This document shows, piece after piece, positions 25,318-33,300 of a stretch of 64,000 nt of DNA (positions are counted from its first letter, which is position 1; every line of letters begins with the position of its first letter). The translations under genes were made by a program, and so were the position numbers. The stretch is from Octopus sinensis (taxonomy: Eukaryota): NCBI RefSeq assembly GCF_006345805.1, contig NC_043013.1, forward strand, positions 14,880,001 through 14,944,000, written 5' to 3'. The notes under the pieces are model-generated. The model saw nothing but the letters and a program-made list of their open reading frames with translations, did no database searches and was not told the DNA's origin.

Positions 25318-26061
<744 letters not shown>

Positions 26062-29840: not shown

Positions 29841-29897
<57 letters not shown>

Positions 29898-29980
29898 AAG
29901 AACAATCTTACTTAGAAATGGATGCGGGCGTTCAGTCATATAATAAATTAATAAATAAAACATATGCATATATACATACA

Positions 29981-31406
29981 TCAGAACTGGAGGAGAAGTT
30001 CCAGGTGTGGAAGGAGGGTTTAGAATCGAGGGGCCTTAGAGTCAACCTAGCTAAAACCAAAGTACTAATAAGTAGGAAGGTACACAATCCACAAATGTCT
30101 TCAGGAAGATGGCCCTGCTCGATCTGTAGAAAAGGTGTAGGTAGAAACTCTATAAGATGCACCAAGTGTAAGCTATGGACACATAAGAGGTGCAGCAATG
30201 TCAAAGGTAGGCTAACTGGGAAGATAGTTTTTGTATGTGGCAGATGCTCGGGAGCATTAACCTCCGAAAATCTGCAGAAAACAACTTCCGTCACTTTCCA
30301 GGGGGAAAAACTAGAAGTAGTTGATAGCTTCCGTTATCTAGGTGACCAAGTCAGTAGTGGGGGTGGGTGCGCTGAAAGTGTAACTGCTAGAATAAGAATA
30401 GCCTGGGCAAAGTTTAGGGAGCTCTTACCTCTGCTGGTGACTAAAGGCCTCTCGCTCAGAGTAAAAGGCAGACTGTATGATGCGTGTGTACGAACAGCCA
30501 TGCTACATGGCAGTGAAACATGGGCCGTGACTGCTGAGGACATGCGTAAGCTCGTGAGGAATGAAGCCAGTATGCTCCGATGGATGTGTAATGTCAGTGT
30601 ACATACTCGACAGAGCGTTAGCACCTTGAGAGAAATGTTGTACCTAAGAAGCATCAGTTGTGGTGTGCAAGAGAGACGATTGCGCTGGTATGGTCATGTG
30701 GCGAGAATGGATGAAGATAGGTGTGTGAGAAAGTGCCAATCCCTAGCAGTTGAGGGAACCCGTGGAAGAGGTAGACCCAGGAAAACCTGGGACGAGGTGG
30801 TGAAGCACGACCTTCGAACTTTAGGCCTCACTGAGGAAATGACCAGCGACCGAGACCTTTGGAAATATTCTGTACGTGAGAAGACCAGGCAGGACAAGTG
30901 AGCCCAGCCCACTTATGAATGCCTTTTCTCCCTTGGACACAAAGACCTGTTGAGGCAAGCGAAGTCAATATAGAACCTCATCTGACGACAGGCACCCATG
31001 CCAACCCCCTTTGCTTGCGAAGACATGTTGGGGCAAGCGAAATCGAAATTGAAACCGAATTGAACCAGCCAGGATCCCTGGTCTGGTGGTACGTAAAAAG
31101 CACTATCCGACTCGTGGCCGATGCCAGCACCGCCTCGACTGGCTTCCGTGCCGGTGGCACATAAAATACACCAATCCGACCGTGGCCGTTGCCAGCCTCG
31201 CCTGGCACCTGTGCAGGTGGCACGTAAAAAGCACCCACTACACTCACGGAGTGGTTGGCGTTAGGAAGGGCATCCAGCTGTAGAAGCATTGCCAGATAAG
31301 ACTGGAGCCTGGTGCGGCCTTCTGGCTTCCCAGATCCCCGGTCGAACCGTCCAACCCATGCTAGCATGGAGAACAGACGTTAAACGATGATGATGATGAT
31401 GATGAT
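29981..31406 (+). mobile_element. 5'-truncated RTE-clade LINE (RT C-terminal half, 3' UTR, (GAT)n tail)
   Basis: Open frame SELEEKF...GLRVNLAKTK...FRYLG...LHGSETW...RLRWYGHVARM...GRGRPRKTW...RQDK* to 30901, about 485-nt 3' UTR and a GAT repeat tail. Confidence 0.95.
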
Positions 31407-31576
31407 ATGTACGTACCTACCTCTACATGTATATATACATGCATATATGGGTACAGGACACCAAAAAAACGTCGAACACAATGAGAAACGAAAACATAAA
31501 CACAAAACCAAGGAAATGGACATTTTTCTTAAACAATGAAAAAATAGAGTACAGGACATACAAAACAAGGAAAATT

Positions 31577-31651
31577 CCCCTTCTTCAGTCACCTTAGTTT
31601 CATCTACTCCACATTTCAAAGGTCAAGGCGATACATGACTTCAATGAAAAT
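31577..31651 (-). ncRNA. Inverted second copy of the permuted hammerhead at 33010
   Basis: Reverse complement nearly identical to 33010-33084, with a few substitutions. Confidence 0.6.
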
Positions 31652-31739
31652 TTCCTTCCCACGAAAATCAAATTAAATAAAATTTGAGATCTTTTTGCGG
31701 AGGGTACCAAAAACAGGACAGTAACAACAGTACAAAATA

Positions 31740-32445
31740 ATCATCATCATCATCATCATTTAGCGTCCGCTTTCCATGCTAGCATGGGTTGGACGGTTCA
31801 ACTGGGGTCTGTGAAGCCAGAAGGCTGCATCAGACCCAGTCTGATCTGGCAGTGTTTCTACAGTTGGATGCCCTTCCTAATGCCAACCACTCCGTGAGTG
31901 TAGTGGGTGCTTTTTACATGCCACCCGCACAGGTGCAAGACGGAGCTGGCAAACGGCCATGGACGGATGGTGCTTTTTACGTGCCAGGCGAGGCTGGCAA
32001 CGGCCATGAATGGATGGTGCTTTTTACGTGCCTCCGGCACGAGGCCAGTCAGTGCGGCGCTGGCAATGGCCACGAACGGATGGTGGTGCCAGACGAGTCT
32101 GGCAAACGGCCACGAACGGATGGTGCTTCTTTACGTGCCACCGGCACGGGGGCGAGGCGAGGCTGGCAACGGCCACGAACGGATGGTGCACGAGGCCAGT
32201 CTGGGCGGCACTGGCAACACCCACATTCGGAAGGTTCTCTTATGTGCCACCGGCACTGGTAACTCAGCTGCAATTTCCATTGATCGATTTCGATTCTGAT
32301 CCTCATTTGCCTCAACAGGTCTTCACAAGTAGAGTTTTGTGTCTCAAGAAGGGAAGGTATGCATAAGTGGGCTGGCTACATCCCATGTAGAAGGCCACGG
32401 GTTATGGTCTCACTTGTCCTGCCGGGTCTTCTCGCGCACAGCATA
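31740..32445 (-). mobile_element. RTE 3' fragment (last codons, 3' UTR, tail)
   Basis: Reverse strand YAVREKTRQDK*, UTR repeats and (ATC)n; short AAAATA-like duplication at both ends. Confidence 0.88.
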
Positions 32446-32826
32446 AAATATAAACAGTAAAAGAAAGGACATGGAGAATAACAGTAACACAAACAAGAAG
32501 GGCTGTTAAGCCAAACGAGATAAAACTTTTTTTTTACGAACGCTATTTTTTGAGAACGGCAGAGAGCAACAGATTTTACAGCCCTTCTTGTTTGTGTTAC
32601 TGTTATTCTCCGTGTCCTGTCTTTTACTGTTTTTGAAGGAAGCCAGGAGAAGAAAGACAATGGGACCCATCTCATCACGTGACCACGACGGGAGGGAGGA
32701 GGAGGAGGAGTAAGAGAAAGGGAGAGAAAAAAAGGGAAATGGTTGTAGAGAAAAGAATGAAGAATGAGAGAGAGTGGGAGAGACAGTAAGGTAGATGAAA
32801 AGGAAAGCCAAAAGAATGAAGGCTGA

Positions 32827-33300
32827 GAAAAAAAACTTTTATCTCGTTTGGCCTAACAGCCCTTCTTGTTTGTGTTACTGTTATTCTCCGTGTCCTGTCT
32901 TTTACTGTTTATATTTTGTAGTGTCGTTACTGTCCTGTTTTTGTTACTATTTTTACCCCTCTGCAAAAAAATCTCAAATTTTATTTAATTTGATTTTTGT
33001 GGGAAGGAAAGTTTTATAGAAGTCATGTATCGCCTTGACCTTCGAAATGTGGAGTAGATGAAACTAAGGCGACTGAAGAAGGGGAATTTTCCTTGTTTTG
33101 TATGTCCTGTACTCTATTTTTTCGTTGTTTAAAAGGAATGTCCATTTCCTTGGTTTTGTGTTTATGTTTTCGTTTCTCATTGTGTTCGACGTTTTTTTTG
33201 GTGTCCTGTACCCATATATGCATGTATATATACATGTAGAGGTAGGTACGTACATATATGTATGTATATATGCATATGTTTTATTAATTTATTTTATATA
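32827..33300 (+). mobile_element. Penelope-like terminal-repeat element carrying the permuted hammerhead
   Basis: An inverted copy spans about 29945-32535, interrupted by two RTE insertions. It ends in GTCCTGTACCCATATATGCATG plus TA-rich sequence, as do related copies near 500-610 and 1250-1375. No Penelope ORF is seen, so the class is inferred. Confidence 0.6.
33010..33084 (+). ncRNA. Candidate non-circularly permuted hammerhead ribozyme
   Basis: AGUUUUAU..CAUG-UA-UCGCCUU-GA-CCUUC-GAAA-UGUG..AUGAAACU-AAGGCGA-CUGAAGA-A-GGGG. Confidence 0.7.

What the first reader, a model, noticed from the sequence alone, without database searches (positions are those of the whole stretch)
33010..33084. Second, sequence-divergent version of the permuted hammerhead with compensated helices
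Seen: AGUUUUAU(33010-17)/AUGAAACU(33058-65) extra helix, CAUG-UA(33024-29) with GAAA-UGUG(33044-51) as stem III, UCGCCUU(33030-36)/AAGGCGA(33066-72) as 7-bp stem I, then CUGAAGA-A-GGGG pairing with CUUC. Helix sequences are largely different from the 9865 copy, yet order, lengths and core are kept, which argues against chance. The stem III G-U pairs fit CpG decay of CACG/CGUG. The 2-nt linker joins the distal ends of stems I and II, which lie side by side in active hammerheads, so it could replace the usual loop-loop contact (inference). An inverted copy lies at 31577-31651.
Basis: partly seen in the sequence, partly recalled or inferred. Interest (0 to 1): 0.85.

Follow-up and report, generated by a model that had tools for sequence, protein, structure and literature searches.

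The report
Knotted hammerhead ribozyme in animal retrotransposon
A repeat present in thousands of copies in this animal genome carries the parts of a hammerhead ribozyme in a knotted order so far described only from environmental sequence data; it is predicted to cut its own RNA, likely with the help of a second copy, and would explain why one large group of jumping genes seemed to lack this ribozyme.

Summary
Window 33010-33084 has the hammerhead blocks in the order cleavage site, GAAA, CUGAnGA: type SGC of Eckert et al. 2023, who reported none in genomes of known organisms. Here a spaced pattern for the family has 4,096 matches (control 0). Four subfamilies keep the core while stems I and III and an extra brace helix covary (11 of 29 pairs change on both sides); stem II support is thinner. 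The motif sits in a ~795-bp non-coding repeat with Penelope-type insertions; no coding parent was found. Unlike published SGC, a 5' strand pairs beside both stems I and II, and a conserved internal loop makes a one-molecule fold strained, so a two-copy ribozyme is my preferred reading. Cleavage is untested, this copy is weakened by CpG decay, and 25 of 30 insertions run through the site uncut. The 9865 copy is poor support (stem II fails in 16 of 30 relatives). Read by eye, published Naiad retroelement consensuses said to lack canonical hammerheads also carry permuted ones (SGC in octopus, CSG in nematodes). Verdict: new variant of a known kind, interest 0.8.

The parts
33004..33009 (+). 5' strand of closing helix P0 (pairs 33089-33094)
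   Evidence: 95% of cells paired, weak covariation
33010..33017 (+). 5' strand of brace helix (pairs 33058-33065)
   Evidence: (3 of 8 pairs change on both sides)
33018..33023 (+). internal loop, GAA side
   Evidence: GAA in 59 of 81 copies
33024..33036 (+). block S: stem III strand, UA site (predicted cut after 33029), stem I strand
33037..33039 (+). 3-nt linker between stems I and II
   Evidence: sequence; 5-6 nt in subfamily A3
33040..33051 (+). block G: stem II strand, GAAA, stem III strand (one CpG-decayed base in this copy)
33052..33057 (+). internal loop, AGUA side
   Evidence: 78 of 81 copies, partly by the anchoring used
33058..33065 (+). 3' strand of brace helix, directly followed by stem I
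33066..33084 (+). block C: stem I strand, CUGAAGA, one inserted A, stem II strand
33089..33094 (+). 3' strand of closing helix P0
31577..31651 (-). inverted copy of the motif; C11.1 and one stem I C changed to U
32837..33294 (+). right arm of the insertion: 5'-truncated copy of the ~795-bp unit (unit 340-795), ends in (TA)n
32438..32830 (-). left arm, 5' part (unit 88-427, internally rearranged)
31405..31739 (-). left arm, middle part (unit 415-758) with the inverted motif
29893..29981 (-). left arm end (unit 759-795) plus one-sided 47-bp extension (unit 1-47), the Penelope-type tail
   Evidence: also in L244, L245, L246, L256
9865..9935 (+). separate repeat family B with the same block order but a failing stem II

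Best explanation
This is a hammerhead ribozyme motif in the non-circularly permuted S-G-C order, carried near the 3' end of a ~795-bp non-coding repeat that is likely a non-autonomous Penelope-like retroelement; it is predicted to cut after A33029, likely slowly and when the loop of one copy pairs with the CUGAAGA strand of a second copy. Shown: block order, core letters, covarying helices across subfamilies, copy number, insertion anatomy. Inferred: each RNA first folds into a long arm (closing helix, brace, internal loop, stem III) that displays the stem I/II strands in its tip loop and the CUGAAGA strand as a bulge at its base; tip and base of one arm are about 80 A apart if the conserved internal loop stacks, so the core would form between two copies (two repeats of a tandem transcript or two RNAs), possibly aided by the element's protein. 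The likely role is to process tandem read-through transcripts into unit-length RNA, while uncut or re-joined RNA is what gets integrated. The window copy itself is probably weaker than the family norm.
For: Descriptor 2 hits vs 0 in 150 shuffles. 4,096 pattern matches vs 0 control. The 3' half of a divergent copy predicted the 5' half later found. 33 natural copies: 92.5% of cells paired, 11 of 29 pairs changed on both sides, slid controls 46-56%. 81 copies in 4 subfamilies: changes on both sides at I.2, I.4, I.6, III.2, III.4, III.5 and II.4; N7 varies, H17 is never G. The rival register that buries G8-A9 breaks in A3 (third and fourth pairs 1 of 12 and 0 of 12) while the hammerhead register holds (12, 11, 7, 12 of 12). 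One inserted base after A9 is common in published SGC alignments and in Penelope hammerheads (PMC4209133). Partial tandems, inverted truncated copies, (TA)n targets and a 47-bp tail match Penelope-type insertions (PMC8557442). Rough geometry: 83 A to span with a zero-length link if the loop stacks (assumed constants). Penelope hammerheads are reported as weak, dimer-like or protein-assisted, with unprocessed RNA the main insertion substrate.
Against: No cleavage data. Stem II has two G-U pairs and no double change among A1, A2 and A4; its support rests on A3 and one odd copy, and A3 rows were placed by block anchoring. A4 has a U-U mismatch at I.6 in 5 of 5. The copies fall into about four related subfamilies, so independent compensatory events are few, and the CUGAnGA and GAAA letters were used as anchors. 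Nested folding of the window copy gives stem III probability 0.00 and an alternative long helix between the flanks. 0 of 30 insertions start at the site; 25 run upstream through it. A one-molecule fold is geometrically possible if the internal loop is open, and published SGC RNAs cleave during transcription. No coding parent found.
Confidence: 0.55

Rival explanations
1. Monomeric type-SGC ribozyme: one RNA folds the whole knot; the short linker and the helices capping stems I and II replace the usual loop-loop contact, and the brace folds back as a strut with an open internal loop.
For: Published SGC RNAs cleave co-transcriptionally at 0.007-0.19 per min and share the ~3-nt linker. About 15 A must be spanned by 6-nt strands that can reach ~46 A (rough). 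Most insertions carry a single copy.
Against: The GAA/AGUA loop is conserved across subfamilies, as expected of a stacked motif (loop E / sarcin-ricin label recalled); the closing helix adds a further constraint; nested ensembles show stems I and III competing.
Confidence: 0.3
2. A hammerhead-derived structure that no longer cuts in this family and is kept as a binding or priming signal for the retroelement protein.
For: Weak stem II in A, failing stem II in family B and 2-3 bp in the octopus Naiad motif; insertions do not start at the site; hammerhead mutants of one Penelope element still insert in vitro (PMC11167929).
Against: Catalytic letters, U16.1 and non-G H17 are kept across subfamilies while helices diverge; A3 keeps the catalytic register of stem II.
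Confidence: 0.13
3. Chance arrangement in a repeat, amplified passively.
For: A high copy number alone says nothing about function; nested fold z-score is unremarkable.
Against: 0 hits in 150 shuffles; compensatory changes in three helices; the same order in unrelated families.
Confidence: 0.02

Closest known systems
Type-SGC hammerhead ribozymes (HRIMA-1 and SGC variant; Eckert et al. 2023, PMC10085705)
   Same: Block order S-G-C, full core, ~3-nt linker between stems I and II, usually one inserted base after CUGAnGA.
   Different: Those were found in metatranscriptomes and none in genomes of known organisms; their extra 'I' helix pairs the two flanks of block C with each other. Here the 5' flank pairs with both flanks (brace and closing helix), stem III is extended through a conserved internal loop, stem II is weaker, and the host is a high-copy animal repeat.
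Hammerheads of Penelope-like elements (Cervera and de la Pena 2014, PMC4209133; PAc, PMC11167929)
   Same: Location in the repeated end of a Penelope-type element, unpaired base before stem II, proposed weak or two-copy activity, uncut RNA inserted.
   Different: Those are type I (circular-class order) with a tiny helix III; here the order is pseudoknotted and helix III is long.
Naiad Penelope-like elements (Craig et al. 2021, PMC8557442)
   Same: (TA)n targets, tandem and inverted insertions, one-sided tail; the octopus Naiad 3' end has the same S-G-C order with a brace helix.
   Different: Naiads are 3.4-4.4 kb and coding; this family is ~795 bp, non-coding, and was not linked to a Naiad ORF. 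The authors report no canonical hammerheads, only 'half cores'.
Non-LTR retrozymes (PMC7229834; bioRxiv 10.64898/2026.07.22.740005)
   Same: Non-autonomous, hammerhead-bearing, Penelope-related repeats of animals.
   Different: Retrozymes are 150-450-bp tandem repeats with type I hammerheads and shown circular RNAs; this unit is longer, mostly dispersed and truncated, permuted, and has no RNA data.

Membership tests
type-SGC hammerhead | 5'-to-3' block order S, G, C | tested here: met
type-SGC hammerhead | core CUGAnGA, GAAA, UH | tested here: met
   CUGAnGA and GAAA partly by anchoring, U16.1 76 of 81 and H17 non-G 81 of 81 not anchored
type-SGC hammerhead | stems I and III with covariation | tested here: met
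   5 of 7 and 2 of 5 pairs change on both sides; more with A3
type-SGC hammerhead | stem II with covariation | tested here: inconclusive
   95.5% paired but no double change in 33 rows; one double change and loss of the rival register in A3
type-SGC hammerhead | short linker between stems I and II | tested here: met
   3 nt in A1, A2, A4; 5-6 nt in A3
type-SGC hammerhead | 'I' helix pairing the two flanks of block C (HRIMA-1 and SGC-variant motifs) | tested here: not met
   the flanks pair with the 5' strand instead; so not a member of the published motif alignments, though of the same permutation type
type-SGC hammerhead | site-specific self-cleavage | not testable with these tools
   no assay; no raw RNA reads examined
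canonical hammerheads, types I-III | pseudoknot-free three-way junction order (CGS, GSC, SCG) | tested here: not met
   order is SGC; no Rfam hammerhead match
Penelope-like elements (non-autonomous) | 5' truncation, partial tandems, inverted copies, one-sided tail, microsatellite targets | tested here: met
   against the description
Penelope-like elements (non-autonomous) | 3' end shared with an RT/GIY-YIG-coding parent | tested here: inconclusive
   1 of 40 regions of a C-terminal-endonuclease family (separate insertion) and 0 of 30 Naiad RT regions carry the family A motif; the searches were small samples
Naiad clade | N-terminal GIY-YIG, CxC linker, C-terminal RT | tested here: inconclusive
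   family A has no ORF; the link is by shared motif order, brace helix and target only
non-LTR retrozymes | type I hammerhead in every unit of short tandem arrays | tested here: not met
   permuted motif, ~795-bp unit, mostly single truncated copies
non-LTR retrozymes | expressed as linear and circular unit-length RNA | not testable with these tools
   no run on record as RNA and no raw reads offered

The most novel reading that the evidence does not exclude
Non-circularly permuted hammerheads are not an oddity of environmental RNA circles but the missing ribozymes of Naiad retroelements and their non-coding parasites across animal phyla (SGC in cephalopods, CSG in nematodes), and the knotted order makes them two-copy sensors: the core assembles only between two repeats or two RNAs, coupling cleavage to the tandem and inverted insertions typical of these elements.
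Probability: 0.35. Interest if true: 0.93.

Novelty: new variant of a known kind. Interest (0 to 1): 0.8.

Why it matters
Type SGC was the first natural non-circular permutation of an RNA and had no example in a known organism's genome (PMC10085705); eight literature searches returned no report of SGC or CSG hammerheads in animals or retroelements, within a library that lacks most subscription journals. Thousands of copies in several diverged subfamilies give a ready mutational series and a biological setting. The same reading resolves a stated puzzle, that Naiad elements lack canonical hammerheads yet carry 'half cores', and makes it testable with ~100-nt RNAs. It implies that descriptor-based ribozyme counts in animal genomes miss a whole class, and it bears on how Penelope-like elements process their RNA.

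Tried and rejected
Rfam scans found no hammerhead; uninformative for this order. Nested folding cannot model the knot. Slipped stem II register (G8-A9 paired, 5 bp in A1): rejected as the conserved fold because A3 breaks it; it remains a possible off-state in A1, A2, A4. A kink-turn reading of the internal loop was tried by eye against a recalled consensus and did not fit. Coding parent: the endonuclease ORF upstream of an A4 copy in L145 is a separate element ending in its own (TA)n; a young 782-aa Penelope-type ORF family and 20 divergent Naiad RT regions do not carry the motif; the L026 endonuclease lies tail-to-tail. 5' ends at the cleavage site: none of 30. MAFFT put the 12 A3 rows two columns off in block S, so they were left out of the pair count. 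Of 111 anchored copies 30 were dropped for a truncated, unalignable or unrelated 5' half. Expression: no RNA holder listed; no reads were laid, so expression and RNA ends are open. Earlier notes of this scan: none. Lunse et al. 2017 on dimeric Penelope hammerheads was not held; only its title was seen. bioRxiv supplements were not visible and may bear on the claim of no earlier report.

Full report
Observation. From 5' to 3' the motif reads: brace strand 33010-17, a 6-nt loop strand, block S (stem III strand, UA, stem I strand; 33024-36), a 3-nt linker, block G (stem II strand, GAAA, stem III strand; 33040-51), a 6-nt loop strand, brace strand 33058-65, and block C (stem I strand, CUGAAGA, one extra A, stem II strand; 33066-84). 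A descriptor for this order hits this copy and the inverted one at 31577-31651 and nothing in 150 shuffled windows. Rfam gives no hammerhead match and the nested fold is no better than shuffles (z +0.99); neither method models this knot.

What it is. The order S-G-C is type SGC, a non-circular permutation described and shown to self-cleave by Eckert et al. (PMC10085705; I read parts 2-5 of 8 of the text, passages, a supplement search and two supplement parts). They note a linker of about three bases between stems I and II and an extra helix pairing the flanks of block C, and state that none of these RNAs was found in genomes of known organisms. Most rows of their alignments that I saw have one base inserted after CUGAnGA, as here.

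Family and covariation. The window lies in G000 (2.7 Gb). A DNA search gave 1,785 candidates; a spaced pattern covering GAAA, the loop and CUGAWG has 4,096 exact matches against 0 for the reversed control; one 35-mer of the window's subfamily has 162. The 3' half of a divergent copy predicted a changed stem I, and the 5' halves found afterwards had it. Of 111 distinct copies anchored on the 3' half without use of pairing, 81 had an alignable 5' half; 30 were dropped. They form four subfamilies: A1 (51, the window's), A2 (13), A3 (12), A4 (5). On a MAFFT alignment of 33 copies (14 of 51 A1, all A4, all A2 and one odd copy; the A3 rows were misregistered and left out) 92.5% of cells pair, 11 of 29 pairs change on both sides (3 of 500 shuffles reach this), and slid controls give 46-56%. 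These cells stand for few events, since the copies are related. With block anchoring A3 adds changes at III.2, III.4, I.6 and II.4; N7 varies, and H17 is A, C or U but never G. A rival 5-bp register that would bury G8-A9 is open to A1, A2 and A4 but breaks in A3 (1 and 0 of 12 at its third and fourth pairs), whereas the catalytic register pairs in 12, 11, 7 and 12 of 12. Against: A4 has U-U at I.6 in 5 of 5, and the CUGAnGA and GAAA letters served as anchors.

TGTG after GAAA is a copy-level CpG change (CGTG 46, TGTG 4 of 51), but CATG is the norm in A1 (45 of 51; CACG 2), so one G-U pair belongs to the subfamily. The window copy thus has two adjacent wobble pairs next to the core, and in a nested ensemble stem III has probability 0.00 against 0.94 for stem I. 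The 9865 copy belongs to another repeat (1,853 candidates). It has the same order, and a divergent relative covaries in stems I and III, but the first stem II pair can form in only 14 of 30 copies, so it is weak support.

Host element. The unit is about 795 bp and non-coding. Copies are 5'-truncated, end in (TA)n, and occur as partial head-to-tail tandems, inverted pairs and with a one-sided 45-47-bp extension. In the window the insertion spans 29893-33294: a minus-strand arm split by two later insertions (29982-31404 and 31740-32437) and a plus-strand arm. These are the features listed for Penelope-like elements (PMC8557442, passages). Among 30 copies chosen only by their 3' part, 25 begin upstream of the predicted site, 5 downstream and none at it: the integrated template is uncut or re-joined. 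A Penelope element tested in vitro also inserts unprocessed RNA, and its hammerhead cuts only with protein (PMC11167929, passages). No coding parent was found: 1 of 40 regions of a C-terminal-endonuclease family carries the motif, as a separate insertion, and 0 of 30 Naiad RT regions carry the family A form.

Link to Naiads. Craig et al. say that Naiads lack canonical hammerheads and mark eight families as 'half core', with the second half 35-50 nt away on either side. A motif from their octopus consensus has 119 exact matches in G000, from which I infer that G000 is an octopus. In 52 such loci the order is S-G-C with a brace helix and a weak 2-3-bp stem II. In L208 it lies about 1.1 kb behind RT remnants (weak RVT_1 match, E 0.00085, below cut-off), and 3 of the 10 best RT loci, L208 among them, have it 1.05-1.31 kb downstream. 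I read further consensus ends by eye only, in supplement parts and passages. Of the eight marked families I saw six: Nbra-3, Hpol and the record placed as Parc by file order end in clean C-S-G motifs (stems I, II and III plus a helix closing block C); Ovul is S-G-C with a weak stem II; Esco is S-G-C with stem II unpaired; Dst-3 showed only block C with its closing helix in the 600 bases seen. Smim and Dst-4 were not seen. Nbra-1, Nbra-2, Hcon and the record before Lpol are also clean C-S-G, and Obim is S-G-C; I saw no such motif at the ends of Omin, Adux, Skow-1 or Sdum. None of this was computed. That a Naiad mobilises family A is inference.

Mechanism. Without crossing helices one RNA can form a long arm: closing helix, brace, internal loop, stem III. 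Its tip loop holds the strands for stems I and II and GAA; block C is a bulge at its base, joined to the brace with no spacer. The loop keeps GAA in 59 and AGUA in 78 of 81 copies (the latter partly by anchoring), which resembles a stacked loop E or sarcin-ricin motif (recalled label). With assumed constants, a stacked loop leaves about 83 A to span with a zero-length link, while an open loop leaves about 15 A for strands that can reach 46 A. So a monomer needs the loop open; a fold between two copies does not. Eckert et al. flag a similar distance problem in some SGC RNAs, and Penelope and amphibian hammerheads are reported to work poorly alone and better as dimers (PMC4209133 and PMC7229834, passages). 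I put the identity as an SGC-type hammerhead fold at about 0.9, cleavage by the family at about 0.85, and split it 0.55 two-copy or assisted, 0.3 monomer; non-cutting structure 0.13, chance 0.02. The nematode motifs have 0-19 bases between the closing helix and stem III (by eye), so the two-copy step need not be general.

Novelty. Searches for type-SGC and type-CSG returned only the 2023 paper; six further searches and passages of a 2026 preprint on animal retrozymes (supplements not visible) and a 2026 paper on viral ribozymes showed no report in animals or retroelements. The library lacks most subscription journals. It is the same permutation type as published SGC but fails their flank-to-flank helix, having a bridging 5' strand and a braced stem III instead: a new variant of a known kind in a new setting. 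Cleavage, expression and the driver element are open (no RNA holder listed). Interest 0.8.

Noticed in passing
L086:1130-1157 (and an inverted copy near L086:935-965): A hammerhead-like motif in the ordinary C-then-G order, with the same extra A after CUGAAGA, in another repeat of this genome.
   Followed up: no
L193:1211-3556 (also L194-L196): A young Penelope-type family with a 782-aa open frame (RVT_1 match, GIY-YIG-like end) and many near-identical copies; no SGC motif seen behind it.
   Followed up: partly
L041:157-272, L012:2537-2655, L013:2906-3025: Older relatives of family B (9865) covary in stems I and III, but their possible stem II would need a 5-base insertion after CUGAnGA, and the linker can pair with G8-A9 instead. 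Unexplained.
   Followed up: partly
window 29982-31404: 3' fragment of a LINE-like element with RT-tail reading frame followed by a SINE-like repeat, inserted into the left arm of the element.
   Followed up: no
window 31740-32437: SINE-like repeat with internal tandem units, inserted into the left arm; family recurs in the window.
   Followed up: no
window 25402-25975: Two 287-nt arms in perfect inverted arrangement (96%) around a (TA)n run.
   Followed up: no
G000:C1:30658779-30658859 and L154:1443-1635: Local duplications of the motif's 3' half, 46 and 77 bases apart.
   Followed up: no
L012:3-634 and L012:683-1006: Fragments resembling a mariner transposase and a Helitron-type helicase (labels recalled).
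   Followed up: no
supplement of PMC8557442: Naiad consensus 3' ends read by eye as C-S-G hammerheads in seven records (six nematode, one placed only by file order) and S-G-C in three cephalopod records.
   Followed up: partly
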